A stretch of DNA of 64,000 nt from Candidatus Omnitrophota bacterium (GTDB lineage: Bacteria > Omnitrophota > Gorgyraeia > Gygaellales > Profunditerraquicolaceae), in NCBI GenBank assembly GCA_043800555.1, contig JAZDMX010000017.1, forward strand, positions 4,068 through 68,067. The letters are read 5' to 3'. The stretch's first letter is position 1, and each line of letters begins with the position of its first letter. Below are positions 1 to 15,533 of this stretch, piece by piece. The notes below the pieces were generated by a model that was not told the DNA's origin, searched no databases, and saw nothing but the letters and a program-made list of their open reading frames with translations. The position numbers were made by a program, and so were the translations under genes.

Positions 1-2739
1 CGTGCCGATGCCGACTTTGGCATTGGCGTAATCGTCGGGATAAAGGTAATAATTGGGGCTGCCGGAATATGTCCAGGGCCCGCCAGTGTAGGAAATATCG
101 GTCCAGGCGCCCACTCCGTTTGCGTCTGAAACCAAAGCATAGGTATTCTGCGCTCCGGTGGGCATCTTAAAACCGGTAGCCTGGATTGTTCCCGTAACAT
201 CCAATTTCTGCGCGGGGCTGGTCGTCCCAATCCCCACATTATAGCCGGTGGAAATCGGATACAATGTGCTTCCGGATAACTTCCAATACCCCTGGGTGCT
301 GCCTCCGGAAGGGGCATAGACGCTACCGGTTACGCGGATGTCTCCGGTAACGTCAAGATCGTAAGCAGGGCTAGTGGTGCCGATGCCGACGTTGCCGCTA
401 CCAGGCCCCACAATAAGCCCGTTATTCCAGGCCCCGGAAACCTCCAGGGCTGCCAGGCCCGTAGCTGCGCCGGCGGTATTTTCGATATATATGCCGTTTT
501 CGGTCACGCCGGAGCCGGAATTCTTTAACGCAAGCATCTTCTGCGTCCCTGTTGTCGTGGAATTGGCCAGGTCCCCGGAGAATAAGCTTATATCCGTCCC
601 GATAGAGGTATCGCTAACCGTATAAGTAGAGTTAAACGGGTAATTTACGGTAAGGTAACGCTGGTTGGCAGTGCCGCCGGAAACATTCCACTGCAAAGCG
701 GCGTTTCCGGAGCCGGAATTCCTCTGAAAGACAACGGCTTTGTAAGTATCCCCTGTTTCGGTAGAGCCGATGGTCCAGGTAGGAGAAGAAGTGGAACCGG
801 TAACGACCGTGCCGGAAATATTATTGGCGTCAACCGTATCGATATAGGCGCTCTTGAAACGATACAGCGCGGTGCCCAGCGAAGCGGTGTTGGTAGTGTA
901 GGAAGTGGTCGGCCGGAATGCGCCGGTTGAATCAAAGACCACTTCGTTATTAAGCCCGGGGTTAAGGCTTAAGAGGTATTTGTTGCCCGAGCCGGCGCTG
1001 GCAGAAGCAACAGATGAAACAGACAAAACAGTATAACCTCCGGTCCCGGAAGTATTATCGGTAAGCGACAGGCTTTCGCCGGTGGTGGACTGGCTATTTC
1101 CGGCGTTGGAAGCCAAAGATTTGGAAAAGAGCGTCCCGGAAGTAAGGGAGTTGTTGGAAAGAGTCAGAGAGTTGCCCGTAGTATTAGAGGCGCTGATATT
1201 GGCTGTGCCGGTAACATCTAATTTTGCCGCAGGCCCGGTTGTTCCGATGCCGACGTTGCCCTGGATAATCGCCCCGTTTTCCGGCGCAGGCGTAGCCCCG
1301 GAATAGCTTGCGCCTACCGCTAGATTGCCCTCGACATCCAGTTTATTGGCCGGGGTAGTGGTGCCGATACCCACATTATAGCTGGTAGAAGTAGGATAAA
1401 GCGAGCTGCCGGTAAGCTTCCAGTAGCCCTGGGTGCTGCCTCCGGAAGGGGCATAGACGTTTCCGGTAGTGCGGATATCTCCGGTAACATCCAGCTCATA
1501 AGCGGGGCTAGTGGTGCCGATGCCGACGTTGCCGGCAAAATACGCCGTGCTGCCGATTCCCAAGGTCCCGGTAACTTGCAAATTATAATCCGGCGCCGTT
1601 GTCCCGATACCGACACGGGAATGCGCGGTATCTAAATCCAGCAAACCCGATTCGATATTCAAGCCGGTAACAGAGGAATCAGCCAGATTTAAGGTAGAGG
1701 CGTTAACCAGGCTTAAAACGGAGGCGTTAACCGTAACCGAGTCGGTTGAGGCATCGCCTAAAGTAGTATTGCCGTCAAGGTAAGCTGCCCCGCCGGATTC
1801 CAATACCCCGGAAACAAATAAATCGCCGTTGGCTAAGGCGTGCGCGGCGCTTGAGGAATCGCCGATTATGGTATATCCGGAAGTAGGCAGAATAGTCAGG
1901 TTTGTCCCGGATACTGTCCGGACAGTATCGGTGTAGAGGTTGCGCCAGGCGGCTGAAGCAGAGCCCAGGCTATAGGTTGAATCCTGGGAAGGAACGATAT
2001 TCCCGCCGACTATCAGGGTGCCGGAATAAGTAATCGTCCCGTCATACGACACGCTGCACCTGCTTGCTCCGCCGACTTGCAAATCCATGAGGTTGCCGGA
2101 AAAAGTGTCCGGGGCATTGAGGGCAAGGAGCGTCCCCAGGGGAGAGCCGTTAAAATGCCCTGAAGTTGAGCCGTCCCAAGCGCCGGAGCCTAAAGAAAGC
2201 AGGCCGTAATTCGCGGAGGCGTCTCCGTTATAAACCTGGAGGCGGCTTGCTCCGCCGACTTGCAAATCCAGAAGCTTATCCGCCAGGCCCGGGGCTGAAG
2301 TTTCGGTAACATCCAGCTTTAATCCAGTGTAATTGCCGGAAACGGCTTTATTGATAGTTGCCCCGAAGTTATAGGCAACTTCGTCTCCGGTAGAAGCGTT
2401 TTTGGTAACCGAGAATACTCCATTGGTAGTTATCGTATCGGAAGCGCTGTCGCCCAAAGTAACATTGCCGTTAGCGGTCAAGGCGCCGGCTACGGTGAGC
2501 AAAGAATCAAGGTAGGTAGCTCCGCTTGACTCTAAAATACCGGTGATAAATAAATCGTTCTGGGTCCTGGCATGATGGTCGGTCCCTGCGCCTACGCCTA
2601 TCTGGGTCTTTCCTCCGGAGCCGGGGGCAATGACCAGGTCTTCGTTATCGGTGGTAGTAATATCCACGGGCACGCCGTCGAATTTCAACTGGCCCGCATA
2701 AGTGAGCCCGCACAGCGCACAGTTCAATATTACCAACAT
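1..2739 (-). CDS. Giant secreted repeat protein, partial (3' end beyond the left edge). It has an N-terminal signal peptide MLVILNCALCGLTYAG and repeated GNVGIGTTSPxxxLDVTG tail-fibre-like motifs.
   Basis: Manual minus-strand translation from the ATG at 2739 stays open all the way to position 1, about 913 codons. The ORF track omits it because there is no stop in the window. Internal ~175-nt DNA repeats occur at about 225-425 and 1355-1550. Confidence 0.6.
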   Translation of the reverse strand, partial: MLVILNCALCGLTYAGQLKFDGVPVDITTTDNEDLVIAPGSGGKTQIGVGAGTDHHARTQNDLFITGILESSGATYLDSLLTVAGALTANGNVTLGDSASDTITTNGVFSVTKNASTGDEVAYNFGATINKAVSGNYTGLKLDVTETSAPGLADKLLDLQVGGASRLQVYNGDASANYGLLSLGSGAWDGSTSGHFNGSPLGTLLALNAPDTFSGNLMDLQVGGASRCSVSYDGTITYSGTLIVGGNIVPSQDSTYSLGSASAAWRNLYTDTVRTVSGTNLTILPTSGYTIIGDSSSAAHALANGDLFVSGVLESGGAAYLDGNTTLGDASTDSVTVNASVLSLVNASTLNLADSSVTGLNIESGLLDLDTAHSRVGIGTTAPDYNLQVTGTLGIGSTAYFAGNVGIGTTSPAYELDVTGDIRTTGNVYAPSGGSTQGYWKLTGSSLYPTSTSYNVGIGTTTPANKLDVEGNLAVGASYSGATPAPENGAIIQGNVGIGTTGPAAKLDVTGTANISASNTTGNSLTLSNNSLTSGTLFSKSLASNAGNSQSTTGESLSLTDNTSGTGGYTVLSVSSVASASAGSGNKYLLSLNPGLNNEVVFDSTGAFRPTTSYTTNTASLGTALYRFKSAYIDTVDANNISGTVVTGSTSSPTWTIGSTETGDTYKAVVFQRNSGSGNAALQWNVSGGTANQRYLTVNYPFNSTYTVSDTSIGTDISLFSGDLANSTTTGTQKMLALKNSGSGVTENGIYIENTAGAATGLAALEVSGAWNNGLIVGPGSGNVGIGTTSPAYDLDVTGDIRVTGSVYAPSGGSTQGYWKLSGSTLYPISTGYNVGIGTTSPAQKLDVTGTIQATGFKMPTGAQNTYALVSDANGVGAWTDISYTGGPWTYSGSPNYYLYPDDYANAKVGIGT

Positions 2740-2754
2740 CAGGAAAAGGGGGAT

Positions 2755-2900
2755 GTTTCTAAAAAAAGGGGACGCGGGAATTGGGGACGTTTCTACTTTT
2801 CCAGAGTTTAAAGCCGGAAAAGTAGAAACGTCCCCAATTCCCGTAGAAACGTCCCCCTTTTCGCAATTTCTAGAAAAGCGGAAACGTCCCTTTTTTTTCG
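2755..2900. repeat. Composite, nested copy of the palindromic REP-like element. It carries extra GGGGACG-cgggaatt units.
   Basis: Contains GGGGACGTTTCTACTTTTC ... GAAAAGTAGAAACGTCCCC plus mirrored flanks. Lies immediately upstream of the start of the giant repeat protein. Confidence 0.85.
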
Positions 2901-2940
2901 TATAATCCGTTATGTTTCCCATATTCTGCTATCGGCTAAA

Positions 2941-3522
2941 TCATTCCGCCCCAAACATAAACGCGGGTTCGTCGGGGATGGCTTCTTCGGAATTCTTAAA
3001 CGCCCCCCTTAAGGTAATTATTCCTCCGCCTCCTCCTAAAACTACTTCTCCGCCTTTCCTTATGTAAAGCGCCTTATCCGTAACATTATCCGGAGCAATC
3101 AATCCGTAAACGAAATTCTCGGCGGTAACCGTTGAATCCGTCCTCCCGCCGGCTGTAAGCGATTTCGCCTTAAAAACTTCAGACACTTTAGAGATAACTA
3201 CGCCGGCCCCCTGCTTGTCGACAACGGCATCATCCGATGAGCCGGGCACTCCTTTGGGGAACCAATTGCCGGCTTTATCCCAGCTTGCCGCGTCGGCCTT
3301 CCCCGACCACTGCTTCGTATCAGCCCGCGCGCCGCTACAAGAAAAAAATAGCACAAAAATGAATAAACTCAAGGAAAATATGAGAGAAAAGGGGGACGAA
3401 AAAAAGGGGGACGTTTCTACTTTTCTGGCGCTAGATTCGGGAAAAGTAGAAACGTCCCCTTTTTTCCCGTTCTCCTTTTCTCCGCTTCTCTTTTCTCTTG
3501 AGACATCCGCATTTTTCTTCAT
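2941..3522 (-). CDS. Secreted hypothetical protein. Its N-terminal region includes a translated REP-like element, followed by a hydrophobic signal-like segment.
   Basis: The 193-aa ORF has its ATG at 3522, overlapping the stop of the upstream gene in an ATGA arrangement. Hydrophobic stretch SLIFSLSLFIFVLFFSCSGARA. Confidence 0.5.
   Translation of the reverse strand: MKKNADVSREKRSGEKENGKKGDVSTFPESSARKVETSPFFSSPFSLIFSLSLFIFVLFFSCSGARADTKQWSGKADAASWDKAGNWFPKGVPGSSDDAVVDKQGAGVVISKVSEVFKAKSLTAGGRTDSTVTAENFVYGLIAPDNVTDKALYIRKGGEVVLGGGGGIITLRGAFKNSEEAIPDEPAFMFGAE
3387..3467. repeat. REP-like palindromic element, copy 2.
   Basis: GGGGGACG aaaaaaa GGGGGACGTTTCTACTTTTC tggcgctagattcgg GAAAAGTAGAAACGTCCCC with a T-run. 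Confidence 0.9.
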
Positions 3523-4832
3523 GGCCTGACAAATAGCGAAGCTCCGCCAATATCCATTTTCTTTACTTCCAAATAAACCTTGCCATCCAGAATTATTTCA
3601 CCCGAGACGTCATTAAAGCCATAATCATACAGGCCATTATACCCCAAACTCAAAAGGTTAAGGCCTAAATCAGCCGCCAGGCGCGGCCGGGCGGAAAAAA
3701 CTTTATTGCCCTCCGGGTATTCTATGGTATAAGTTTCAATAAGCGGCTGGGCCAAACCGGAAATCTTGGAAAATTGGACCTTAAGCACCCAGGAAGAGCC
3801 CCCGCTTTCGGGCTTTGCCTCCAGGATTAAAGAATCTTTATTATCAATACCGCTTAAATTGTCCAGATAGAGCGCCTTGACCTCCCTGGAATCCGGTATA
3901 GGGAACCTCGCCCCTTCCTTCAGCATAAGATTGCCCGAGCGCATCGGCGCGTTACGCAAAGCGACAAAAGTAATGCTTTGGCGCGTACTGCCGTTTTTGC
4001 TTTGCGCGGTAAAAGCGATTTCTATCGCCGTGATTACGGGTATATCGGAAGTTGCTATGGAGCCTTCCGAACCCAATTCGCTATTTGTATTGTCAAAATA
4101 ACGAAATTTAAAATCCGTGATTTTCACCCCGAAAGGATTTTTATAAACCTCTTTCGAACCGTCTTTATCGTCAATAAATACTGCTTGGGCAAGCGGGTCA
4201 TAGCGAAAAGTTACCAGGCAATCGGCGTCTTTTCCATAATCCGGATAAAAAGTAAAACGCAGGTGGCTGCCGGCAGGCACAGCCATATCCAGCTTGAATT
4301 GAGGGTAGTCTTCGGATTTTCCTTTATCGATGAAGGTGACCGGAACAACCTTGTATTCATTGGATTCGGGCAAAAGCGCCTCGGCAATCGGCAGGCTTGC
4401 GCCGGGTTTAATATGTTTATTTAAGGTATAGGTGTTGACCCCGGTATAGACGTCGTGAGTGTCGTCGGTCCAAGGCATAACCGTAACAACTTTTTCAGAA
4501 GTGCCGTCTACCACTTCCAGCGCGTCGCGAAGCCCGTAAGCGCCGGGAAGCCCTTCCACGAGTTCCTCCATAATCCGCGAAGAAGCCTGCTGCAAAAGAA
4601 GCTGATCCTGGGAAATGTCCCAACTTTCCAAGGCAGTCTTCAGGCTGAAATATAACGCGGCTGTGATTAAAGTGGAAATCGCTACGGCGATAACGAGTTC
4701 AATAAGAGTAAACCCCCTGGAAAAGGGGGACGTTCCCGCGGAAAAGGGGGACGTTTCTACTTTTCTGGCGCTAGATTCGGGAAAAGTAGAAACGTCCCCC
4801 TTTTTCAGCTCGCCTTTTCTTCTCATATCCAT
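3519..4832 (-). CDS. Large prepilin-type N-terminal cleavage/methylation domain protein. Possibly a minor pilin or tip-adhesin-like subunit.
   Basis: The motif SRG|FTLIELVIAVAISTLITAALYF is a class III signal with Glu+5. Total length 437 aa. A 40-aa leader includes the translated REP element. Confidence 0.6.
   Translation of the reverse strand: MDMRRKGELKKGDVSTFPESSARKVETSPFSAGTSPFSRGFTLIELVIAVAISTLITAALYFSLKTALESWDISQDQLLLQQASSRIMEELVEGLPGAYGLRDALEVVDGTSEKVVTVMPWTDDTHDVYTGVNTYTLNKHIKPGASLPIAEALLPESNEYKVVPVTFIDKGKSEDYPQFKLDMAVPAGSHLRFTFYPDYGKDADCLVTFRYDPLAQAVFIDDKDGSKEVYKNPFGVKITDFKFRYFDNTNSELGSEGSIATSDIPVITAIEIAFTAQSKNGSTRQSITFVALRNAPMRSGNLMLKEGARFPIPDSREVKALYLDNLSGIDNKDSLILEAKPESGGSSWVLKVQFSKISGLAQPLIETYTIEYPEGNKVFSARPRLAADLGLNLLSLGYNGLYDYGFNDVSGEIILDGKVYLEVKKMDIGGASLFVRP
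4712..4806. repeat. REP-like palindromic element, copy 3, with an extra partial left arm.
   Basis: GGGGGACGttcccgcggaaaaGGGGGACGTTTCTACTTTTC tggcgctagattcgg GAAAAGTAGAAACGTCCCCC. Confidence 0.9.
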
Positions 4833-5326
4833 ATACTGTCCTCGAACAAAGTAGCCACGGAAGCAACCGGCTTCTTAAGGTTATCGCTGCGGTAAACCTC
4901 CACCCTGACCTCCAAAGGGTCCGTATCGGCAAGAACGCGCCGCAAAACCCTCCACTTGGCCTGGTTCATTTCCAAAGGAGGCTCATCCAGTTTTGGCGTC
5001 CAGAGGTCGCCTATTTTTTTAAGGCCGGGCTTGGTAACATTCAAATTCTGGGTCCTTTCCATTTCCCAGCGCGCCAGGTTTACAGCGGTAATCTCTTCTC
5101 CTGAAACCGTAACGGAATAAAGAGCGCTTGAAAAAAGCTGTATCATCGGTATAAAGAGCACGGCGATAACGACAAGCGCGATGAGGATCTCGATAAAAGT
5201 AAATCCCCGGAAAAAAGGGGACGTTTCTACTTTTCCCGGATCTGGCGCCAGAAAAGTAGAAACGTCCCCTTTTTTCCGGGAAAAGTAGAAACGTCCCCCT
5301 TTTTCTTTTTCGATATCAAAACGCAT
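4823..5326 (-). CDS. Minor pseudopilin, GspI/J- or PilV-like, with a prepilin N-terminus.
   Basis: FRG|FTFIEILIALVVIAVLF. The leader contains a translated REP element. Confidence 0.6.
   Translation of the reverse strand: MRFDIEKEKGGRFYFSRKKGDVSTFLAPDPGKVETSPFFRGFTFIEILIALVVIAVLFIPMIQLFSSALYSVTVSGEEITAVNLARWEMERTQNLNVTKPGLKKIGDLWTPKLDEPPLEMNQAKWRVLRRVLADTDPLEVRVEVYRSDNLKKPVASVATLFEDSIWI
5211..5306. repeat. REP-like palindromic element, copy 4 (1.5 copies: one hairpin plus an extra right arm).
   Basis: GGGGACGTTTCTACTTTTC ccggatctggcgccag AAAAGTAGAAACGTCCCC ttttttccggg AAAAGTAGAAACGTCCCCC. Confidence 0.9.
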
Positions 5327-5720
5327 TATACCTCACTTGAACAGCGCGCTTGACGCCGTTACTGTTACCTATAGAAACTATTGTTGATTGCGAATAATCG
5401 TTATACACTTCAAAAACGCCTCCGTTTAATTTCGTGGGAGGGACTATCATATCAAGTTGTTCTTGTTCATCTACAGGCGCTTCCCCTGCCTGGTTCTTAA
5501 GAGCGCTGACTGCCTTGGCGATCCCGGCTTCGGCTAAATATAACGCTCTTGCCCTATCCAGCTCAATCTGGCTTAAGCTCAACACGTTAAAGAACAAAGC
5601 CATAAGGGTCGCCCCTAAAAGAGAAATCGTAAGGATCACAATCAGGACAATCAATAAAATTGCCCCTTTTTCGGCTTGCGGCTTGCGGCGTATGGTTAGC
5701 GCTAAGCGCTCCATTACCAT
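5316..5720 (-). CDS. GspK/PilX-like minor pseudopilin N-terminal domain protein.
   Basis: EKGAILLIVLIVILTISLLGATLMALF followed by ELDRARALYLAEAGI, resembling the GspK/PilX N-terminal helix. It has no Glu+5. Confidence 0.5.
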   Translation of the reverse strand: MVMERLALTIRRKPQAEKGAILLIVLIVILTISLLGATLMALFFNVLSLSQIELDRARALYLAEAGIAKAVSALKNQAGEAPVDEQEQLDMIVPPTKLNGGVFEVYNDYSQSTIVSIGNSNGVKRAVQVRYNAF

Positions 5721-6259
5721 TCAGAAGGCACCTCGCCTTTGTTTTTTCCCCACTTATCGCTCAAAGGCTCGGTTACATTCACTACCACCTTGGCTTTATC
5801 CGTATAATACGCCCAGCCTCCTGCGCCGGACAGATCCTCGTCGCTCTTAAGGTCTACAAAAGAATTGCTGCCTGCTTTGGAAGAAACCATCTCCAGGGGA
5901 AGTTTGGCTAAGTATGGCTGCTTAACGCCCATATCATCGTAGCTCCTGGTCAAGAGATCAGAAAGCGCCACGGGATATTCCCCTTCTTTGGCGCGGAACA
6001 TCGCGATGCGCGTGCGCAGCGTATTTAAATTGGTGAGTGTGGCCGAAACCTTTGCTTCCGTATCAAAACCAATGAAATTAGGAATAATAGTCGCTGCCAA
6101 TATCGCGATGATAGAAATAACAATTAGAAGCTCAAGCAAAGTGAAGCCCTTAGAAAAGGGGGACGTTTCTACTTTTCTGGCACGAGGCTTGCGAAAAGTA
6201 GAAACGTCCCCCTTTTCCGCGCCCCCTTTTTCCTTCCGGAAAGATAATGCTAACCTCAT
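5714..6259 (-). CDS. gspG: GspG/PulG-like major pseudopilin (type II secretion / type IV pilin-like).
   Basis: SKG|FTLLELLIVISIIAILAATIIPNF is a textbook GspG N-terminus. The 38-aa leader includes a translated REP element. Confidence 0.75.
   Translation of the reverse strand: MRLALSFRKEKGGAEKGDVSTFRKPRARKVETSPFSKGFTLLELLIVISIIAILAATIIPNFIGFDTEAKVSATLTNLNTLRTRIAMFRAKEGEYPVALSDLLTRSYDDMGVKQPYLAKLPLEMVSSKAGSNSFVDLKSDEDLSGAGGWAYYTDKAKVVVNVTEPLSDKWGKNKGEVPSEW
6153..6233. repeat. REP-like palindromic element, copy 5.
   Basis: GGGGGACGTTTCTACTTTTC tggcacgaggcttgc GAAAAGTAGAAACGTCCCCC. Confidence 0.9.
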
Positions 6260-6263
6260 TTTC

Positions 6264-7508
6264 CTACCTCCTGATAACGCTGATTAGATTAAAAATAGGC
6301 AATAAAACAGATAGGGCGATAAAAGCCACAATCGAACCCATTACCAAAAGCATTGCCGGCTCAAGCAGGCTGGTAAGGTTACGCACCGTAAATTCGATTT
6401 CCGGCTCATAAAAAGAGGCTATCTGGTCGAACATCTGGTCAAGCCTCCCTGTGCGCTCTCCCGTGTTAATCAACTGTATAACCATAGGCGGGAATAAACC
6501 CGACGCCTGGAAAGGCTCGGTTAAGCTTTGCCCTTGCGAAATAGCTAACCGGGTGTCTTTAATCATCTTTTGCAGGACAACATTAGGAATAGTATTCTCT
6601 ACCACCGAAAGCGCTTCTAACACCGGGACTCCGGATTTGGTAAGGGCGGCTATAGAACGCGATAAGCGGCTGGTTATGACCTTAAGGGTCAGCGGCCCAA
6701 ACAACGGAAGCCGCAGAAGCAAGAAATCAATGCGGTAGCGGCCCGCCGAAGTCCGGTAATAATTCCTTAAAGCGTTTAGGCCAATGATAGCTGCCAGGCC
6801 GATTAACCACCAGAAATTCCTTACGATATAGCTTAAAGAAAGCAGGGTTTTTGTAGGTAAGGGCAACTTGGCCGAAGAGGCTTCAAATATGGCAACGAAT
6901 TTAGGGAGGACCGCGACCAAAACAAAATTCACGATAACAAAAGCTACCAAGCCCAGCACTATAGGATAAACCAATGCCGAACGGATCCGGCTGCGCAGGT
7001 CAATCTCCTGCGTGCTTAATTCCGCCAGCCTGCTCAAGACCTTATCCAGCATGCCTCCGGCTTCCCCCACTTTGATTAAGCTTACATATAAATTCTCGAA
7101 GATACCGGGGTAGCGGGCAAGCGATTCCGAAAAACTCAATCCCTCCTCTAAAGAAGAAATAATATCTTTTATGACCGACTTAAACCTCGAATTTTGCGTC
7201 TGGCCTAAAACATTTTCCAGGCTTGTAATTAACGGGGCGCCGGTAGAAATAAGGGTGCTTAACTGTCGAGTAAATACAAGCAACTCCTGGCGCGAAACTC
7301 TTCTCACCCAGAAAGGGGAGGGCGTTTCCACTTTTCCCGAGCTTGGCGCCGAAAAAGTGGAAACGCCCTCCCCTTTTTCCGCTATGTCAACCGGGCTAAG
7401 GCCGAGTTTCTCTATTGACAAGGCTGCTTTTGTTTCGTCTTCGGCATCAATGACCCCTTGAGCCAAAGCGCCTTGGGCATCTCTTGCTTTATAGCTAAAG
7501 GTTGTCAT
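6264..7508 (-). CDS. pilC: Type II secretion system protein F / type IV pilus platform protein PilC. A 23-codon REP-like element is inserted in-frame.
   Basis: The N-terminus reads MTTFSYKARDAQGALAQGVIDAEDETKAALSIEKLGLSPV, then the insertion GEGVSTFSAPSSGKVETPSPF, then SRQELLVFTRQLSTLISTGAPL and three TM segments. Confidence 0.85.
   Translation of the reverse strand: MTTFSYKARDAQGALAQGVIDAEDETKAALSIEKLGLSPVDIAEKGEGVSTFSAPSSGKVETPSPFWVRRVSRQELLVFTRQLSTLISTGAPLITSLENVLGQTQNSRFKSVIKDIISSLEEGLSFSESLARYPGIFENLYVSLIKVGEAGGMLDKVLSRLAELSTQEIDLRSRIRSALVYPIVLGLVAFVIVNFVLVAVLPKFVAIFEASSAKLPLPTKTLLSLSYIVRNFWWLIGLAAIIGLNALRNYYRTSAGRYRIDFLLLRLPLFGPLTLKVITSRLSRSIAALTKSGVPVLEALSVVENTIPNVVLQKMIKDTRLAISQGQSLTEPFQASGLFPPMVIQLINTGERTGRLDQMFDQIASFYEPEIEFTVRNLTSLLEPAMLLVMGSIVAFIALSVLLPIFNLISVIRR
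7310..7380. repeat. Variant REP-like palindrome (subfamily) lying in-frame inside pilC.
   Basis: GGGGAGGGCGTTTCCACTTTT cccgagcttggcgccg AAAAAGTGGAAACGCCCTCCCC. The arms differ from the main family but remain perfectly complementary to each other. Confidence 0.8.
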
Positions 7509-9027
7509 AGCCCCAATACTCCTTCAACTTCTTTACCTTATCGTCATATATTTCCGTTTCTATGGATTTTTTTTGCGCTGCCTCTTTGGCCAGGCGTGAT
7601 TCTGCCCGGGCCTGCGCGCGGGCTTGTTCCTGGGCTTGCTGCGCCTTTTCTGCCCTATAAGCCTTAATCATTTCTCTCTCTAACTTAGCCCTTCGACGCG
7701 CTTCTTCCAGCAACGCCTGGTTGACAAGGCTCTTCTTATCCTCTTCCAGCGCTCCCTGCAAACGCTCTTTAAGGTCCTCGTCTTCCTGCAGCCGAAGCGC
7801 CTGGGAACTCTCTTCTTTTGTCAAATTCCTGATTTTGGCAAGTTCGGCCTCGGCCTTGCCGCGCGCTACTTTCCTTATGCGCGCGTTAACAGAGTTCCTC
7901 AATTCCACGGCCTTATCCGCGAATTCCGAATCCGGGTACTTTAATAATATCTTCGCGCACATCTCTTTGGCTAAATTCTGTTCGCCTAAATCGCTATATA
8001 AGGCTGCCGCCTGATAAGCGGACTCCGGCGCCTTTGGGCCGTCGGGAAACTGGGTAACGATACACTCATATATGCTTAAAGCCTGGTTCTTGCGCTGCCA
8101 ATCGTCTTTGTAAAAAGATTCTACGCCGGTGTTTTCCTGGAGGTTTTTAGCTTTTTCAAACAGCTTCGCCTGCACATTGAGGTCCGCCGTGCTCATAATG
8201 TTCACATAGGCTTCCTCTTCATAACGCGTCTTGTTTTCAGCGAGCATCTCCGCGCGCGAAAGCAGGATTTTGGGGGTAATGAAAACCGCCAGCTCCGTCT
8301 GGCTCTTATCGCTGCTTCTGCTGCTAAACAAATATTCTATACCCGGGATATAACCTAATATGGGGATGCGCGACCGCGTGCTGCTATCTTCTTGTTTGAT
8401 AAGCCCGCAGATTACAATAGTCTCGCCCTCTTTGACCCTTACAGTTGTGTCTGCTTCGCGCGTAGTAATGCGCGGCCCGGCGTCCAAAAGAGCGCTTACC
8501 GAAGAAACCTCCGGATGTATCGCCAGGGTAATATAACCATCGGCGTTAATAGACGGAGTTACCCGCAAAGTCGTCCCTACATCAATATATTTGGTGGTTT
8601 CAGTTGTGCCGGTAGTAGTCTGGGTCTTCTCCTTATACGGGACCTTCTCTCCGATAATAATGCGGGCCTCCCGGTTATTTAAAACCGCAATGGACGGAGA
8701 CGCCAATAAATGCGCTTTCTGGTCCTGGATTAAGGCGTCTATGGTAGCGGTAGCGGTCAAGCCGTTTAATACCAGGCTATCCAGCTTAAACTGCCCGCCG
8801 GAAAGGCTTGAGGATGTCCCGGCGAGAGTTTGAGTCATCTTAACAACTTTAGAAGAAGCCGATGGGCTCCAATCCGCGGTCCAGGTAACTCCCAGGTTCT
8901 TTAAATCTTTGGAGGTCATATCCACAATCTTGGCTTCAATAAGCACCTGCCGCGGCGGCTGGTCAACATCCTTAAGCAGCGCTTTTAATTTCTCGATACT
9001 GGCAGGATAATCGGTTACCACAAGCAT
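7495..9027 (-). CDS. pilQ: Secretin (GspD/PilQ family) C-terminal part. It contains the secretin domain plus an unusual ~260-aa TPR (YbgF-like) and charged coiled-coil C-terminal extension.
   Basis: PRQVLIEAKIVDM, ASPSIAVLNNREARIIIGEKVPY, SRIPILGYIPGIEYLF and TELAVFITPKIL. The frame stays open 27 codons upstream of the ATG, to a stop at 9103-9105. Confidence 0.75.
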   Translation of the reverse strand: MLVVTDYPASIEKLKALLKDVDQPPRQVLIEAKIVDMTSKDLKNLGVTWTADWSPSASSKVVKMTQTLAGTSSSLSGGQFKLDSLVLNGLTATATIDALIQDQKAHLLASPSIAVLNNREARIIIGEKVPYKEKTQTTTGTTETTKYIDVGTTLRVTPSINADGYITLAIHPEVSSVSALLDAGPRITTREADTTVRVKEGETIVICGLIKQEDSSTRSRIPILGYIPGIEYLFSSRSSDKSQTELAVFITPKILLSRAEMLAENKTRYEEEAYVNIMSTADLNVQAKLFEKAKNLQENTGVESFYKDDWQRKNQALSIYECIVTQFPDGPKAPESAYQAAALYSDLGEQNLAKEMCAKILLKYPDSEFADKAVELRNSVNARIRKVARGKAEAELAKIRNLTKEESSQALRLQEDEDLKERLQGALEEDKKSLVNQALLEEARRRAKLEREMIKAYRAEKAQQAQEQARAQARAESRLAKEAAQKKSIETEIYDDKVKKLKEYWGYDNL

Positions 9028-9047
9028 ATTGGCTACTTCATCAACTT

Positions 9048-9521
9048 TTATATCTCCCTTATTCGAGAGGACTTGCGCACAAGGTTCTGGGCGTCGGCAG
9101 CCTTAATGTATTTCAAGATTATAGGAACGGTGATGACTTGCGCGCCGTCAACTGAACCGGGCGAAATATAAAGCATATTGCCTTTACGGGAATAATTATA
9201 ACCATTGCCGGACAATATCGCCTCCAACGCCTCGCCTATCGATACGTCTTTTAAGGAAACGGTGATTTTTCCTTTAACATCGGAGGAAGTAACTAAGTTT
9301 AATCCGTAGGTATAACTTAGAGAACGCAGGACATCGGCGATATCGACATCTTTGTAATCCACGGAAATCATTTCTTTAAGAGGGTCGGATAGCGCTGCCT
9401 CTTTAGTCCCGGCTTCCGGGCTTATGCCCGCACCGGCAGCAGGCAACGGCGATCCTTGCGCCAAAGGCGCAATAGCCATGAATAGAAAGGACGCGCAAAT
9501 AAACGCTATTTTGTTTTTCAT
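9048..9521 (-). CDS. pilQ: Secretin N-terminal fragment: signal peptide plus N0/N1 domains. It is separated from the secretin body by a frameshift.
   Basis: MKNKIAFICASFLFMAIAPLAQG signal peptide. ISVDYKDVDIADVLRSLSYTYGLNLV is a secretin/TonB-N-terminus short (STN) domain. The fragment ends AQNLVRKSSRIREI*. Confidence 0.65.
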   Translation of the reverse strand: MKNKIAFICASFLFMAIAPLAQGSPLPAAGAGISPEAGTKEAALSDPLKEMISVDYKDVDIADVLRSLSYTYGLNLVTSSDVKGKITVSLKDVSIGEALEAILSGNGYNYSRKGNMLYISPGSVDGAQVITVPIILKYIKAADAQNLVRKSSRIREI

Positions 9522-9559: not shown

Positions 9560-10456
9560 TTATCTTTCGAGTTTCAATACTTCCTTTTCTGCCCCGCTAT
9601 TAATAACTACGGAATTAGGCAAAATTCTTTCTATCTTTGCCCAGTCAACCTGATCGCCTGCCTTAACTATCAGCCCGTTAATTATCGCAGTTGAGCTAGC
9701 CCCGCTCTCCCGATAGGCTATACCGGTGACCTTTAGTTTCTTTCTTTTGGTTTTATCCACAACAAATTTAGGCGTAAAAGGGCTGCGCTTAAGGACTCCG
9801 TCATCTGCTCCGGGCTCTTTGGCAGACAAAGATAACTGGCCGCGGTTATTTGAAGCGTAACTTAAAAGAGCGCTTAATCTTAAAGAAACGTTAATCGTCG
9901 AAAGCAAATCATTCTTGGACTGGCCCAGCCTCATTTCATCCATCCTGACAAACGGCGAAATAGACTCTATCCTCTTTATATAGGTAACCGCTTTGCCATA
10001 ATCAGAAGAGAACTCCAAATCTATATAAAGCCTGCCAAACCCTTCTTTATCTTCTTTGACATCTTCTTTAACGGATTCCAGGTCCACGCCCAGGCTTTGA
10101 GCGTTCTTTATAACCTCGGCCAATAGATACTGTTCCTGGGAAGCGCCGATTAGCTTTGATTCAATATCGGAAATATGCAACTTTAACTCTTTAATCTCCC
10201 GCCTTATTGCTTCTATCTCCTGGCTGGCTGTAGCCGAAGAAGGAAGCTGGGAATCAAGAAGCCCAAGCTGATTTTGATTCTCCTGCAGTTTTTTTCTCAT
10301 CTTGCTGATATCGTTTAAGGCCGGCTTTAAAAACAAGGCGAAATAAAATGAAGCGGCCAGCACAAAAACAAAAATGAGGAAAAGCCGCTGTTCACCCTTC
10401 TTCAATTTGCCATACCAATTGTTATAGATCACCGCTAGCTGCTTGATAAGCATCAT
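9560..10456 (-). CDS. PilO-like coiled-coil protein fused to a C-terminal PilP-like domain.
   Basis: N-terminal TM segment, a coiled coil, and a C-terminal LKVTGIAYRESGASSTAIINGLIVKAGDQVDWAKIERILPNSVVIN that is PilP-like. Confidence 0.55.
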   Translation of the reverse strand: MMLIKQLAVIYNNWYGKLKKGEQRLFLIFVFVLAASFYFALFLKPALNDISKMRKKLQENQNQLGLLDSQLPSSATASQEIEAIRREIKELKLHISDIESKLIGASQEQYLLAEVIKNAQSLGVDLESVKEDVKEDKEGFGRLYIDLEFSSDYGKAVTYIKRIESISPFVRMDEMRLGQSKNDLLSTINVSLRLSALLSYASNNRGQLSLSAKEPGADDGVLKRSPFTPKFVVDKTKRKKLKVTGIAYRESGASSTAIINGLIVKAGDQVDWAKIERILPNSVVINSGAEKEVLKLER

Positions 10457-11097
10457 TCTTTGGCCTTTTTCGCTGCGCCCAAAGGCGACTTTTTTTGATT
10501 CCAGCCGGGTTCGGTAACAATCTGAAAATTATAAATAACGTGTGAATCTATAACCTGCTTTTCCGTAGAAACAAACCGGGTATTCCTAAAATCCTTGCAG
10601 CCGTCAAGCTTATTCATGAAATCGGCGATCAATTGGCTGTTAATCGTTGACCCGGATACCTGGATTTCATTATCATTCATTATAAGGCGGTTTATCCATA
10701 AATCCTGCGGCAGGAGCCCCGCGATAGAGGCAAGCAGCCCGCAATAGCCCCCGCTTCTTGCCACGGTAGAAGACAACAAGTCCAGGCGTTGTTTAAATAG
10801 CGCCTCTTCTTTGATTAAGCCGGATTTTAACTTCTCGGCTTGAAAATCCCGGGTTTGCAATTTCTTAAATTTAGTTTTTGTATCTTCTATCGCCTGTTTT
10901 GTTAAGCCGATGTTAAGCCTATAGCTATTTACCATAAACGCGGGGCCGGCAATTAATAAAAAAATTGGCAAAAACCCAAAAACGATAAGCCTGCTTAACC
11001 GCCTCTTTTTCCCGCCAAGGGCTTTAAACATTTTAGATAACGGCCTATTAAGGGCGTTTTTGGAAATAAGGTTAACCGGCTTTAATTTCAAAATCAA
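10453..11097 (-). CDS. pilN: PilN-like pilus assembly protein.
   Basis: Single TM segment RLIVFGFLPIFLLIAGPAF followed by a coiled coil. Positioned between pilM and the pilO-like gene. Confidence 0.6.
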   Translation of the reverse strand: MILKLKPVNLISKNALNRPLSKMFKALGGKKRRLSRLIVFGFLPIFLLIAGPAFMVNSYRLNIGLTKQAIEDTKTKFKKLQTRDFQAEKLKSGLIKEEALFKQRLDLLSSTVARSGGYCGLLASIAGLLPQDLWINRLIMNDNEIQVSGSTINSQLIADFMNKLDGCKDFRNTRFVSTEKQVIDSHVIYNFQIVTEPGWNQKKSPLGAAKKAKE

Positions 11098-12160
11098 TAC
11101 CTCCGTTTATAAATTTTGTTGCCAGCCCTAAAGCCCCGGTAAAGGCTATAGAATTCTGCTGGACAACCGGGTTCAACCCGTTCTCGGAGTGAGAAACAAA
11201 AAAAGCCAAAGGATCAAAGACATTAACCGGGATTTCCAATTTGTCAGCCAGGAATTTATCCAGGTTTTTCAATGCCGCCGCCCCGCCGCACAAAATAAGG
11301 CGCTCGATTTCCGGCGCTTTAGATTTTACAAATTTATGGGAGAAATCTTTAATCGCGTGCTCAATATCAATAAGCATATTTTCCATCTGGCTGGAAAGCG
11401 CCGGGCACTCACCCAGGCCTTCCTCTATCTTTAAGGCTTCTGCCTTTTCCCAATCAAACTGATAGTATCCGGCCAAGATTCCGGTAAAACCGTTACCCGA
11501 GGCACCTAACGGCGTTATAAGATAGGGATGGCCCCCGGATACAATAATTATCGAGGAATTGCTTGCTCCTATTCGCAGCACCAAAACAGTTTCCTTTTCT
11601 GATATATTTTTAGATAAAGACAGGGCTTCAATAACTGCGTAAGGCTGGGGCTCAATAGAAACTAAATCTAAGGATAAGCCCTTAAAGAACTTGGCCATAT
11701 CCAAAACTGTTTTCTTGCTAGTTACAAATACTAAAACATAAATATCCTTATTCCCGGCCTCCTGGGGGCTGGCGCAAACATAATCAAACGATATATCATC
11801 AAATTTTACTCCCGGAGGAAGGTTCTGTTTGATTTTCCAGGTAAGGGCGGGTTCAACTTCGCCTGCGGGCATATCCGGCAAGGTATAGCTATAGGTGTTA
11901 ATCCCGCTCAACGGGATCGAAACCGCTACTTCCCCTTTGACCCGATTCTCTTTTACAAGTTTCTCCAAAGAATCTTCCGGGATAATGGAGACAGGGACGC
12001 CTTTATCGCGCCCAAGGCTGGCATAGTCAGCTTTTAGGATTTTATAACTGGATTTGAATTTGGCTAATTGCAATAGCTTAAGCGAACTTGAACCTATTTC
12101 TATTGCAGTAGGGAAATACTCCGGCTTTAATCGCAACACTCTAACCTCCTTTACGGGCAA
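11072..12160 (-). CDS. pilM: Type IV pilus assembly ATPase-fold protein PilM (actin-like).
   Basis: VLRIGASNSSIIIVSGGHPYLITPLGASG and ERLILCGGAAALKNLDKFLADKLEIPVNVFDPLAFF. Confidence 0.8.
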   Translation of the reverse strand: MPVKEVRVLRLKPEYFPTAIEIGSSSLKLLQLAKFKSSYKILKADYASLGRDKGVPVSIIPEDSLEKLVKENRVKGEVAVSIPLSGINTYSYTLPDMPAGEVEPALTWKIKQNLPPGVKFDDISFDYVCASPQEAGNKDIYVLVFVTSKKTVLDMAKFFKGLSLDLVSIEPQPYAVIEALSLSKNISEKETVLVLRIGASNSSIIIVSGGHPYLITPLGASGNGFTGILAGYYQFDWEKAEALKIEEGLGECPALSSQMENMLIDIEHAIKDFSHKFVKSKAPEIERLILCGGAAALKNLDKFLADKLEIPVNVFDPLAFFVSHSENGLNPVVQQNSIAFTGALGLATKFINGGIDFEIKAG

Positions 12161-12530: not shown

Positions 12531-12620
12531 CCCGGAAAAAGGGGGACGTTTCTACTTTTCCGGCGCCAGATCCGGGAAAAGTAGAAACGTCCCCCTTTTT
12601 CCAGGCCCCTTTTTTAACCC
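12531..12620. repeat. REP-like palindromic element, copy 7, immediately 3' of the RAYT gene.
   Basis: GGGGGACGTTTCTACTTTTC cggcgccagatccgg GAAAAGTAGAAACGTCCCCC. Confidence 0.9.
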
Positions 12621-13282
12621 CTCGGCCTTCCTATTTTTTTGTTAAAGTTATTTATTTGATAGAACTCTGATAACCCGCGGACAAACGCCTCGCTGCCGAT
12701 GAAAAACTGTTTAGAAATAACCTCTGAATTCACTATGCTGCTATCTACTACAAATTCTATATATAGTTTCGCTCTAGCCTGGAGAGAGCCGGAAAGGCTG
12801 CAATACGCCGGGCTATCGGAAATTACGGCATTTGGCAAACCAAGCGCATAATAACAGTAGCTGCTGAAGCGATACCTTTCAGGCGCTTTAACCAGCCCGG
12901 ACCTTACCGGATTAAGCTCAATATACTTCCCGCATTGCAAAAGATACGAATCGGTATCAATAATATTGCTTTTATACCTGCCCTGCCAGATATGCCCGCT
13001 GTAACCATAAGTCCTTTTGTAATAATTAAAATATAAGAGATTGAGTTGTTTCATAAACTTGGGCAAGTTACTTGTAGCATCCAGCCAAACAATCAAATGG
13101 CTATGGTTACTCATGATACAATAGTGGAATATACTGATATTATTCTCTTTTCTAAGGTTTTTTAGCAGTTCCCAATAGGCATGCTTGTCTTCATCGCACC
13201 TAAAGATACACTGCTGGTTATTTCCTCTAGTCATAATATGCAAAGCCCCATTCCGGGGGATAAGCCTTCTTGTCCTGGGCAT
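12614..13282 (-). CDS. REP-associated tyrosine transposase (RAYT; IS200/IS605 TnpA-like Y1 HuH transposase).
   Basis: HuH motif CIMSNHSHLIV and catalytic-Tyr motif YIELNPVRSGLV, the RAYT signature Y..NPV.AGLV. AGGAGG Shine-Dalgarno sequence upstream. REP copies flank it on both sides. Confidence 0.8.
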   Translation of the reverse strand: MPRTRRLIPRNGALHIMTRGNNQQCIFRCDEDKHAYWELLKNLRKENNISIFHYCIMSNHSHLIVWLDATSNLPKFMKQLNLLYFNYYKRTYGYSGHIWQGRYKSNIIDTDSYLLQCGKYIELNPVRSGLVKAPERYRFSSYCYYALGLPNAVISDSPAYCSLSGSLQARAKLYIEFVVDSSIVNSEVISKQFFIGSEAFVRGLSEFYQINNFNKKIGRPRG

Positions 13283-13357: not shown

Positions 13358-13465
13358 TTGGGGACGCGAAATTGGGGACGCGAAATTGGGGACGTTTCTA
13401 CTTTTCTGGCTTTAGGTTCTAGAAAAGTAGAAACGTCCCCAATTTCGCCCAATTCCGCGTCCTAG
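13358..13465. repeat. REP-like element, copy 8. Extended form with two GGGGACG-cgaaatt units, 5' of the RAYT gene.
   Basis: GGGGACGcgaaattGGGGACGcgaaattGGGGACGTTTCTACTTTTC tggctttaggttctag AAAAGTAGAAACGTCCCC aatttcgcccaattccgCGTCC. Confidence 0.9.
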
Positions 13466-15435: not shown

Positions 15436-15454
15436 TATATTTTTACCCCCCAGA

Positions 15455-15530
15455 AAAACGGGGAAATCGGGGACGTTTCTACTTTTCGGGGCCCGAAAGC
15501 CGGAAAAAGTAGAAACGTCCCCGATTTCTC
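15455..15530. repeat. REP-like palindromic element, copy 10.
   Basis: GGGGACGTTTCTACTTTT cggggcccgaaagccgg AAAAAGTAGAAACGTCCCC. Confidence 0.9.
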
Positions 15531-15533
15531 TCT

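What the first reader, a model, noticed from the sequence alone, without database searches (positions are those of the whole stretch)
1..2739. Giant GNVGIGTTSP-repeat protein missing from the ORF track, a possible secretion substrate
The minus strand is open from the ATG at 2739 to position 1, a run of at least 913 codons. It encodes a signal peptide followed by many [GNVGIGTTSPxxxLDVTG] units and Thr/Ser/Gly-rich beta-strand sequence, typical of tail-fibre-like or adhesin-like surface proteins. Near-identical ~175-nt DNA blocks recur within the gene. It is the last gene of the secretion/pilus operon, so it may be the dedicated cargo or a pilus-associated adhesin.
Basis: seen in the sequence. 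Interest (0 to 1): 0.55.

Follow-up and report, generated by a model that had tools for sequence, protein, structure and literature searches.

The report
Pilus-operon-linked tail-fibre-like adhesin gene
The open frame is real and encodes the first 913+ residues of a phage-tail-fibre-like surface fibre that, in at least 28 other Omnitrophota species, always sits inside the same type IV pilus / type II secretion-like gene cluster, which suggests that this machine exports or carries the fibre for attaching to host or prey cells.

Summary
The minus-strand frame 2739→1 is open for 913 codons and runs off the window edge, so the gene is real but incomplete. It has six full VGIGTTxPxxxLDV motifs plus one cut by the edge. 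A profile of this motif hits only the Bdellovibrio MAT (mosaic adhesive trimer) fibre structures in the PDB (E down to 1.6e-14). Other segments are modules shared with phage tail fibres. The "near-identical 175-nt blocks" are one 201-nt duplication at 82% DNA identity. The leader from ATG 2739 is only 15 aa. An in-frame ATG at 2922 would restore a normal signal peptide but reads through a palindromic repeat element. The mature N-terminus (G[QT]LxFDGVPVDITT…) was found only in Omnitrophota and is the most conserved part of the protein. In all 28 related genomes with upstream flank, the gene lies directly downstream of, and co-oriented with, PilMNO–secretin–GspF–pilins(–GspE). Best reading: a trimeric adhesin fibre that is the dedicated cargo or tip appendage of this pilus/secretion machine. 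That is inferred from synteny, not shown. I rate it a new variant of a known kind. The C-terminal tip could not be recovered.

The parts
1..2739 (-). Visible part of the fibre gene (913 codons from ATG 2739). The C-terminus lies beyond the window edge.
   Evidence: Open frame; 517 homologues at E<=1e-5
2740..2922 (-). Possible 5' extension of the fibre ORF (61 codons from the in-frame ATG at 2922). It would supply a K/R-rich n-region and lengthen the h-region, and it contains the REP palindrome read in frame.
   Evidence: By analogy with the four upstream genes, whose only canonical start lies upstream of a REP copy.
2695..2739 (-). Short leader MLVILNCALCGLTYA, ending at the conserved AxA|GQL signal-peptidase-type site
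   Evidence: Alignment with homologues that have full Sec leaders
2440..2694 (-). Mature N-terminus, aa 16-100: the Omnitrophota-specific peptide GQLKFDGVPVD followed by a phage-type 'PGxGGxxQIG...NDDLxITGxLExxG' unit. This is the most conserved part of the protein.
   Evidence: 75-88% column conservation across 30 species; unit found in phage proteins
2035..2439 (-). aa 101-235: second conserved module ('WDGSTSGHF...NLxDLQVGGxS'), homologous to a unit repeated 9 times in a phage tail fibre
1615..2034 (-). aa 236-375: 'IVPSQDSTYSLGSASAAWRNLY' element plus a second copy of the PGxGG/NDDL-type unit
1195..1614 (-). aa 376-515: first block with four VGIGTTxPxxxLDV motifs (MAT 'capping-loop' motif)
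400..1194 (-). aa 516-780: motif-free Ser/Thr-rich central module. Relatives at 55-58% identity occur in 3700-4000-aa proteins of other organisms.
1..399 (-). aa 781-913: second motif block (three motifs, the last truncated). Its first 67 aa duplicate aa 402-468.
2775..2843 (.). REP-like perfect palindrome (28-nt arms, 13-nt spacer) immediately upstream of ATG 2739. Extra half-sites lie at 2743-2761, 2843-2862 and 2869-2890.
2941..3522 (-). Conserved Sec-type protein of unknown function (unk193). It lies directly upstream of the fibre gene in one operon variant.
3519..6259 (-). Four pilin or pseudopilin-like genes: a 437-aa large pilin, a 167-aa pilin, a 134-aa GspK-like(?) protein and a GspG-like major pilin
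   Evidence: N_methyl and T2SSG hits; weak GspK hit; orthologues
6264..7508 (-). GspF/PilC-type platform protein
   Evidence: PF00482, E=5e-57
7495..9521 (-). Secretin gene, split by a frameshift near 9073
   Evidence: PF00263, STN and N0 hits; frame break mapped with an intact orthologue
9560..12160 (-). PilO, PilN and PilM
13765..17879 (-). GspE/MshE-type ATPase (MshEN domain) and a DUF6701 protein. In orthologous loci these lie downstream of the fibre gene.

Best explanation
The ORF encodes the N-terminal 913 residues (974 if translation starts at 2922) of a mosaic fibre protein built from phage-tail-fibre modules. It is very probably a homotrimer and is the Omnitrophota counterpart of the Bdellovibrio MAT fibres. 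It is a conserved, single-copy component of the phylum's type IV pilus / T2SS-like gene cluster.

Proposed mechanism: (1) Sec export and cleavage at AxA|G[QT]L. (2) Trimerisation in the periplasm. (3) The invariant mature N-terminus (G[QT]LxFDGVPVDITT... plus the next ~50 residues) docks onto a conserved part of the machine, most plausibly the minor-pilin tip complex. (4) Pilus or pseudopilus extension pushes the fibre out through the secretin. (5) The variable distal part then binds host or prey surface structures.

Shown here: the gene is real; its stalk motif is the MAT capping-loop motif; its modules are shared with phage fibres; conservation falls from the N-terminus towards the C-terminus; the pilus-cluster linkage is conserved.

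Inferred: trimer state, export route, N-terminal docking and adhesive function.
For: Open frame with many homologues.

The motif-unit profile hits only MAT fibre chains in 177,635 PDB sequences: Bd2133 1.6e-14, Bd3182 3.6e-9, Bd1334 2.5e-6, Bd2439 1.5e-4. The matched Bd3182 segments are the 'capping loops' of its trimeric beta-helix.

Modules are shared with a T4-like phage tail fibre and with IMG/VR phage proteins. One syntenic orthologue ends in Peptidase_S74.

The N-terminal module retrieves only Omnitrophota-labelled proteins.

In 28 of 28 genomes with upstream flank, the fibre gene is co-oriented and directly downstream of PilMNO-secretin-GspF-pilins(-GspE). The gap is <=150 nt in 14 loci. 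In five loci, cluster genes also follow it. There is one hit per genome.

Conservation is 75-88% over the first ~50 mature residues, falling to 35-45% after residue ~165. C-termini are all different.

Precedent: the operon-encoded, Sec-exported proteins TcpF and CofJ dock by their mature N-termini on trimeric tip minor pilins (PMC9565799, PMC6048534). The MAT paper itself leaves the surface anchor unknown and flags possible interplay with type IV pili. T4aP clusters are near-universal in Omnitrophota and are proposed to mediate host attachment (PMC10066038).
Against: There is no functional or structural evidence for a fibre-pilus contact. Both AlphaFold monomer models are low confidence (pLDDT 60 and 63) and gave no significant fold match.

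In this window the secretin gene is frameshifted, an IS200 transposase sits inside the cluster, and REP elements have invaded the 5' ends of five genes. The system may therefore be impaired in this strain.

The leader from ATG 2739 is atypically short.

The C-terminal tip is missing and could not be recovered.

Synteny can reflect co-regulation rather than physical coupling.

The genome scan used two peptide patterns, so genomes with divergent or unlinked copies could have been missed.
Confidence: 0.6

Rival explanations
1. The fibre is a self-standing surface fibre, as the Bdellovibrio MATs are thought to be. It is Sec-exported and anchored to the outer membrane or another surface element through its conserved N-terminal module, independently of the pilus machine. 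Under this reading, the genes are neighbours only because attachment functions are co-regulated.
For: Bdellovibrio MATs have a conserved N-terminal domain presumed to bind an unidentified surface element, and they are not described as pilus-operon genes. Gaps of 0.5-1.4 kb separate the fibre gene from the last recognisable pilus gene in about a third of the loci. The fibre ORF is intact although the window's secretin is frameshifted.
Against: The linkage holds in 28 of 28 genomes across three different operon arrangements, and cluster genes flank the fibre on both sides in several loci. That is tighter than co-regulation usually requires. The gene is single-copy per genome. The peak of conservation sits in the first ~10-50 mature residues, as in the TcpF/CofJ docking signals.
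Confidence: 0.2
2. The fibre is a classical released T2SS exoprotein. The cluster would then be a secretion system with a short pseudopilus, and the fibre would be pushed out and released into the medium, for example as a soluble bridging or lytic factor, and would not stay on a pilus.
For: The major pilin is GspG-like (weak T2SSG hit). PilM-PilN are fused, GspL-like, in one orthologous cluster. No retraction ATPase was seen in the cluster. Others describe T2SS-like loci next to large surface proteins in Omnitrophota (bioRxiv 10.1101/2023.11.21.568195).
Against: Published analyses classify these Omnitrophota clusters as type 4a pili, and the pili are reported as expressed in V. archaeovorus. 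A long adhesive fibre with a strongly conserved proximal end and variable distal end fits an attached organelle better than a free protein.
Confidence: 0.12
3. The gene is a prophage or tailocin tail-fibre gene, or a remnant of one, that happens to abut the pilus operon at the window edge.
For: The best-scoring database hit, P0001, lies in a T4-like phage structural module. Modules are shared with IMG/VR phage proteins. PHROG tail-fibre family hit.
Against: None of the larger ORFs scanned across the 64-kb window matched a phage family. The Sec leader and the Omnitrophota-specific N-terminus are essentially absent from viral matches: eight of nine start at residue 13 or later, and the ninth starts at residue 2 but at only 34% identity. 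Synteny with the pilus cluster holds in 28 genomes, and pilus genes, not phage genes, lie downstream.
Confidence: 0.03
4. In this particular genome the locus is decaying, so the fibre gene is a non-functional relic or is on its way to becoming one.
For: Frameshifted secretin. IS200 insertion between GspE and PilM. REP insertions in the 5' ends of five genes, and a truncated-looking fibre leader.
Against: 913 codons (974 with the extension) carry no stop. The internal duplicate shows 22 synonymous versus 9 nonsynonymous codon differences, which indicates purifying selection. The REP insertions are all in frame within cleavable leaders, and the major pilin's upstream ATG has a good AGGAGG site. 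The frameshift could be a sequencing error.
Confidence: 0.08

Closest known systems
Bdellovibrio bacteriovorus MAT (mosaic adhesive trimer) fibres, e.g. Bd2133, Bd3182, Bd1334, Bd2439 (Caulton et al. 2024, PMC10769870)
   Same: About 1000-aa or longer Sec-exported fibre proteins. They share the VGxGTxxPxxxL 'capping-loop' stalk motif, and these are the only PDB hits of the motif profile. They have a conserved N-terminal part and variable mosaic distal parts. Both S74 and non-S74 versions exist among orthologues. Both groups occur in organisms with predatory or host-dependent lifestyles.
   Different: The N-terminal module retrieved only Omnitrophota proteins. The gene is single-copy and embedded in a pilus/secretion operon, whereas Bdellovibrio has 21 MAT genes with no pilus-operon linkage described. 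The window protein's tip is unknown.
Phage tail fibres and tailspikes with triple beta-helix stalks and a Peptidase_S74 intramolecular chaperone (K1F endosialidase, T5 pb1 type)
   Same: Shared repeat modules with phage fibre proteins. An S74 domain is present in one syntenic orthologue. PHROG tail-fibre hit.
   Different: The gene is chromosomal with no phage neighbours found. The protein has a Sec signal peptide. No S74 domain is present in the visible 913 aa.
Type IVb pilus-dependent secreted colonisation factors TcpF (V. cholerae) and CofJ (ETEC)
   Same: Encoded in the pilus operon and Sec-exported. The mature N-terminus is the element that docks on the trimeric tip minor pilin, and TcpF forms a homotrimer there. 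The fibre has its conservation maximum at the mature N-terminus.
   Different: There is no sequence similarity. The machine here is PilMNO/GspG-like (T4a/T2SS-like), not T4b. The cargo is a >900-aa fibre, not a small globular protein. Docking is untested.
PilY1/PilC-type pilus-tip adhesins of type IVa pili
   Same: Large Sec-exported non-pilin proteins encoded with the minor pilins and displayed at the pilus tip for adhesion.
   Different: No PilY1/PilC beta-propeller domain was detected. The architecture is an elongated fibre of phage-type repeats.
Omnitrophota giant proteins next to T2SS/Tad-like loci (West-Roberts et al. 2023 preprint; 2026 preprint 10.64898/2026.06.07.730766)
   Same: Large putative adhesion proteins of Omnitrophota encoded downstream of a type IV filament-family secretion or pilus locus.
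   Different: Those proteins exceed 20,000-30,000 aa, have many transmembrane helices and lie next to gspDEF/RcpC/Tad-type loci. This one is a 1-3 kaa soluble-type fibre next to a PilMNO-secretin-pilin cluster.

Membership tests
MAT fibre family (Caulton et al. 2024) | Stalk carrying the V-G-x-G-x-x-x-P-x-x-x-L capping-loop motif of the trimeric beta-helix | tested here: met
   There are seven motifs. A profile of 16 units hits only Bd2133, Bd3182, Bd1334 and Bd2439 chains in the PDB, E from 1.6e-14 to 1.7e-3. The Bd3182 matches coincide with its published capping loops.
MAT fibre family (Caulton et al. 2024) | N-terminal Sec signal peptide | tested here: inconclusive
   The conserved AxA|GQL site is present. 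The leader is only 15 aa from ATG 2739 and 76 aa (with a REP-encoded insert) from ATG 2922. All homologues have canonical leaders. No signal-peptide predictor was available.
MAT fibre family (Caulton et al. 2024) | The ~130-aa beta-rich N-terminal domain common to all 21 Bdellovibrio MATs | not testable with these tools
   No full-length Bdellovibrio MAT sequence was obtainable, because the PDB entries cover only C-terminal parts. Indirectly, the window's N-module retrieved only Omnitrophota-labelled proteins, so it is probably a different domain.
MAT fibre family (Caulton et al. 2024) | Homotrimeric fibre | not testable with these tools
   Only monomer prediction was possible. Both models are extended and low confidence, which is compatible with an obligate oligomer but does not demonstrate one.
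MAT fibre family (Caulton et al. 2024) | Variable C-terminal adhesive tip, with or without an S74 chaperone | not testable with these tools
   The window ends before the C-terminus, and extension failed. In syntenic orthologues the C-termini all differ, and one carries Peptidase_S74.
Phage tail fibre (virion component) | Encoded within a phage or tailocin structural gene module | tested here: not met
   None of the ORFs scanned across the window matched a phage family. Orthologues are flanked by pilus genes.
Phage tail fibre (virion component) | Peptidase_S74 (PF13884) C-terminal intramolecular chaperone | tested here: inconclusive
   Absent from the visible 913 aa, but the C-terminus is missing. 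It is present in 1 of the 5 complete syntenic orthologues scanned.
T4bP-secreted proteins (TcpF/CofJ type) | Encoded in the pilus operon and exported by Sec | tested here: met
   Synteny in 28 of 28 genomes. Sec-type leaders in all orthologues.
T4bP-secreted proteins (TcpF/CofJ type) | Mature N-terminal peptide binds the trimeric tip minor pilin | not testable with these tools
   Only indirect evidence: the first 10 mature residues are the most conserved block (0.88 majority fraction).
T4bP-secreted proteins (TcpF/CofJ type) | Type IVb pilus machinery | tested here: not met
   The cluster has PilM/PilN/PilO, a GspG-like major pilin and an MshE-type ATPase, so it is T4a/T2SS-like.
PilY1/PilC tip adhesins | C-terminal PilY1/PilC beta-propeller domain | tested here: not met
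   No Pfam or NCBIfam hit in the window fragment or in the five complete orthologues scanned. The window's C-terminus is unseen.
Trimeric autotransporter adhesins | C-terminal YadA-type membrane anchor | tested here: not met
   No YadA anchor in the five complete syntenic orthologues scanned. The window's C-terminus is unseen.

The most novel reading that the evidence does not exclude
Omnitrophota have recruited a phage tail fibre as the working tip of a type IV filament. The invariant mature N-terminal peptide (G[QT]LxFDGVPVD...) would act as a docking or secretion signal that hooks a trimeric, tail-fibre-like adhesin onto the minor-pilin tip complex. Pilus extension would then present an exchangeable, phage-style receptor-binding fibre to host or prey cells. 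This would also give the first export and anchoring route for MAT-type fibres, which is an open point for Bdellovibrio.
Probability: 0.3. Interest if true: 0.8.

Novelty: new variant of a known kind. Interest (0 to 1): 0.6.

Why it matters
MAT-type and tail-fibre-like adhesins are now recognised as prey-recognition devices in predatory bacteria, but how they are exported and anchored is unknown. The Bdellovibrio authors explicitly leave the anchor open and mention possible interplay with type IV pili. Omnitrophota are uncultured, ultra-small and probably predatory or parasitic, and nearly all of them carry type IV pilus clusters. A single-copy tail-fibre-like gene with a phylum-specific invariant N-terminus, locked into that cluster in every genome examined, gives a concrete and testable hypothesis for both questions. 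It proposes what the Omnitrophota pilus actually presents to the host and how such fibres leave the cell. It also illustrates module exchange between phage fibres and cellular adhesins.

Tried and rejected
Extending the gene leftward failed. Exact-product look-ups of three neighbouring genes were not on record. An exact 56-mer from the window's left end found nothing in the metagenome contigs. The genome scan did not contain the source genome; the best match was 58%. A scan with the unique central module found only module-sharing proteins of 3700-4000 aa with unrelated N-termini and no pilus genes, which are not orthologues.

Pfam and NCBIfam give nothing for the fragment. Direct phmmer against the PDB gave only a marginal hit, E=0.007, until the motif profile was built.

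Two AlphaFold monomer models, aa 16-375 and aa 365-525, were low confidence. Foldseek against the PDB gave no significant match. The first list was headed by chains of trimeric fibres (T4 gp34, Bd2133, HylP, VgrG) at E>=0.2, which I do not count as evidence. The second list was empty.

Tandem Repeats Finder finds no tandem array, so the motifs are interspersed. The terminator and promoter scans were uninformative. RBS inspection did not settle the fibre start codon.

Rejected readings:
- Lipoprotein: there is no lipobox in the leader (read directly from the sequence).
- Trimeric autotransporter or PilY1: no defining domains.
- Member of the Omnitrophota 'giant protein' class: wrong size, topology and locus type.
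Full report
**1. The observation**

The minus-strand frame from the ATG at 2739 to position 1 is open for 913 codons. It is absent from the mechanical ORF list only because that tool drops ORFs that run off the source. Across the gene body the plus strand has only 67-83-aa ORFs, whereas the minus-strand product has 517 database homologues at E<=1e-5, the best at 3e-113. The gene model is therefore sound.

Several details need correcting.
- The frame is open further upstream, to a TAG at 2931-2929, and contains a second in-frame ATG at 2922.
- The leader from ATG 2739 is only 15 residues and has no charged n-region. Every homologue has a canonical Sec leader ending AxA|G(Q/T)L.
- The motif occurs seven times, at aa 376, 405, 456, 496, 784, 835 and 909. 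The last copy is cut by the window edge. Spacing is irregular and there is no tandem array.
- The repeated DNA is one pair of 201-nt blocks at 82% identity. At protein level they are 58/67 identical, with 22 synonymous and 9 nonsynonymous codon differences. This is an old duplication under purifying selection, not near-identical copies.

**2. What the protein is**

Curated libraries give no hit for the fragment, and PHROGs give only weak hits, including a tail-fibre family. A direct search of the PDB sequences gave one marginal hit to 8OJN. 8OJN is Bd3182, one of the Bdellovibrio 'mosaic adhesive trimer' (MAT) fibres.

I then built a profile from 16 copies of the 30-residue motif unit, taken from the window protein and its relatives. 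In 177,635 distinct PDB sequences this profile hits only MAT fibre chains: Bd2133 at E=1.6e-14 with three stretches, Bd3182 at 3.6e-9, Bd1334 at 2.5e-6 and Bd2439 at 1.5e-4. The matched Bd3182 segments (RVGVGTTAPTSALH and FFGINTAAPAYNIH) are the two 'capping loops' the authors describe on the edges of the trimeric beta-helix. The repeat is therefore the MAT and tail-fibre stalk motif.

The protein is a mosaic.
- aa 16-375 match only an Omnitrophota group of proteins.
- The two motif blocks (aa 376-515 and 781-913) match more than 100 proteins from many phyla.
- aa 516-780 is a separate module. Its only relatives (55-58% identity) sit in 3700-4000-aa proteins with unrelated N-termini.

The 'Omnitrophota' part is itself built from phage-type units.
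- Window aa ~148-245 corresponds to a unit repeated nine times in P0001, which is encoded between a prohead protease/Gp23 capsid gene pair and other structural genes of a T4-like phage.
- The 'PGxGGxxQIG...NDDLxITGxLExxG' unit at aa ~28-80 (with a second copy at aa ~290-330) occurs inside 250-785-aa proteins of IMG/VR viral contigs.
- Eight of the nine viral matches begin at residue 13 or later. The ninth begins at residue 2 but is only 34% identical. The very first mature residues, G(Q/T)LxFDGVPVD, thus have essentially no viral counterpart.

**3. Context**

Upstream on the same strand, in order of transcription, lie:
- a DUF6701 protein
- a GspE/MshE-type ATPase
- an IS200-type transposase
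- PilM, PilN and PilO
- a secretin
- GspF
- four pilin-like genes
- a small Sec-type protein of unknown function
- the fibre gene

. The rest of the window is ordinary chromosomal housekeeping, and none of the ORFs scanned matched a phage family.

I scanned one genome per species with the N-terminal module. This returned 30 loci, nearly all labelled Omnitrophota; some third-party assemblies carry Planctomycetia labels. One locus is a 1.5-kb fragment and one is a weak partial hit. In all 28 others, the window's pilus/secretion proteins map directly upstream of the fibre gene on the same strand. The gap to the last recognisable gene is <=150 nt in 14 loci and at most 1.4 kb.

Three arrangements occur...large pilin-unk193-fibre...GspE-fibre, and ...GspE-major pilin-fibre. 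In five loci, cluster genes (DUF6701, GspE, the large pilin, unk193) also follow the fibre gene. Each hit came from a different assembly, which gives one such gene per genome.

Complete orthologues are 980-2889 aa, all with different C-termini. One ends in Peptidase_S74. Nineteen of the 29 fibre ORFs extracted run off a contig end, as the window's does.

Across 30 sequences the majority-residue fraction is 0.88 for the first ten mature residues and 0.75-0.82 for the next forty. It falls to 0.35-0.45 beyond residue ~165. All named proteins carrying the module are from Omnitrophota.

**4. How it most likely works**

The evidence fits a fibre with a conserved proximal end that contacts a conserved partner and a variable distal end that contacts variable targets. 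Because the gene is locked into the pilus/secretion cluster, the most economical partner is that machine. The proposed sequence is:
1. Sec export and cleavage at AxA|G(Q/T)L.
2. Trimerisation in the periplasm.
3. Docking of the mature N-terminus on the pilus or pseudopilus tip.
4. Extrusion through the secretin.
5. Adhesion to host or prey cells.

The closest mechanistic precedents are TcpF and CofJ. Both are operon-encoded and Sec-exported, and both bind through their mature N-termini to the trimeric tip minor pilin. TcpF forms a homotrimer there. These precedents are analogues, not homologues, and the machine here is T4a/T2SS-like, not T4b.

The steps from 'exported' onward are inference. 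Two monomer AlphaFold models were low confidence with no significant fold match. That is unsurprising for an intertwined trimer, but it provides no support.

Rivals are an independently anchored surface fibre that is merely co-regulated, a released T2SS exoprotein, a prophage remnant, and a decaying locus in this strain. They are weighed in the structured sections of this report.

**5. Complications in this window**

A 14-mer, GGGGACGTTTCTAC, occurs 33 times where 0.23 are expected. It forms the arms of about 16 palindromic copies of AAAAAGGGGGACGTTTCTACTTTTC-(13-15 nt)-GAAAAGTAGAAACGTCCCCCTTTTT. Ten of the copies lie in the pilus cluster.

In the major pilin, two other pilins and unk193, the element lies in frame between the only canonical start codon in the first 50 codons and the prepilin G|FTLIEL motif or the Sec h-region. 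Orthologues have normal short leaders, and the major pilin's upstream ATG has an AGGAGG site. The element has apparently inserted into cleavable leader peptides and is translated.

The same may hold for the fibre gene. Starting at 2922 would give a K/R-rich n-region and a 17-residue h-region like those of the homologues. Neither candidate start has a clear ribosome-binding site.

The secretin gene is also frameshifted near 9073. This is either a sequencing error or a sign that the system is impaired in this strain.

**6. Comparison and novelty**

The stalk places the protein with the MAT and tail-fibre-like fibres. It differs from the Bdellovibrio MATs in three ways: it has a phylum-specific N-terminus, it is single-copy, and it is embedded in a pilus operon.

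Published Omnitrophota work describes near-universal T4aP clusters and T2SS/Tad-like loci next to giant genes. No paper in the searchable library mentions both Omnitrophota and tail fibres. The MAT literature leaves export and anchoring open.

I therefore class this as a new variant of a known kind, of moderate-to-good interest. Most of that interest comes from the conserved fibre-pilus coupling and not from the window's truncated copy.

Noticed in passing
window 2743-2890, 3407-3459, 4747-4799, 5217-5298, 6159-6211, 12542-12594, 13388-13440, 13690-13743, 15469-15522, 17815-17867, 21901-21953, 27742-27795, 33020-33073, 44005-44056, 52757-52809: A dispersed REP/MITE-like perfect palindrome, AAAAAGGGGGACGTTTCTACTTTTC-(13-15 nt)-GAAAAGTAGAAACGTCCCCCTTTTT. 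There are 33 half-sites against 0.23 expected. The RNA fold of the copy upstream of the fibre gene is -97.7 kcal/mol (z = -10). Ten of the ~16 copies lie in the pilus cluster.
   Followed up: partly
window 6259-6140, 5326-5205, 4832-4715, 3522-3330 (minus strand, 5' ends of four genes): In three pilin genes and unk193 the palindrome lies in frame between the only canonical start codon and the prepilin G|FTLIEL motif or the Sec h-region, and is translated as '...KKGDVSTF...KVETSPF...'. Orthologues have short normal leaders, and the major pilin's upstream ATG has an AGGAGG site. The repeat elements therefore appear to have inserted into cleavable leader peptides.
   Followed up: partly
window 7495-9521 (minus strand), break near 9073: The secretin gene is split by a single frameshift. 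An intact 588-aa orthologue aligns residues 61-166 in one frame and residues 166-575 in another. Whether this is a sequencing error or a real pseudogene is undecided.
   Followed up: partly
window 12614-13282 (minus strand): An IS200/Y1-type transposase lies between the GspE/MshE ATPase and PilM, with a REP copy on each side. Relative to orthologous loci, the ATPase and DUF6701 genes sit upstream of the fibre instead of downstream, which suggests a rearrangement.
   Followed up: no
window 45768-45849 (minus strand), 19261-20838 and 13765-15435: Several c-di-GMP signalling features lie around the cluster. There is a c-di-GMP-I-GGC riboswitch upstream of a small ORF, a response regulator with GGDEF and HD-GYP-type domains next to the cluster, and an MshEN domain on the ATPase.
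   Followed up: no
window 400-1194 (minus strand); L034 8240-19426, L037 3359-15328, L038 7343-19213, L039 1880-9751: The motif-free central module (aa 516-780) has 55-58% identical relatives only in 3700-4000-aa proteins that begin with HTH/excisionase-like or integrase-SAM-like domains and have no pilus genes nearby. This points to module exchange between very different surface proteins.
   Followed up: partly
L002 10001-13282: The best-scoring homologue, P0001 (1093 aa), is a tail-fibre-position gene in a T4-like phage module (Gp23, prohead protease, tape measure). It is built from nine copies of the '...WDGSxxGxF...NLxDLQVxGxS...' unit and has no VGIGT motif.
   Followed up: partly
L008 9929-13435 (= P0002): This operon-linked orthologue contains a long internal segment of roughly 240 aa that appears twice almost verbatim. 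It could be a recent duplication or an assembly artefact.
   Followed up: no
window 15534-17879 (minus strand): A 781-aa DUF6701 protein is a conserved member of the cluster. From memory, DUF6701 is the Pfam family that includes MSHA biogenesis protein MshQ. In several orthologous loci this gene lies immediately downstream of the fibre gene.
   Followed up: partly
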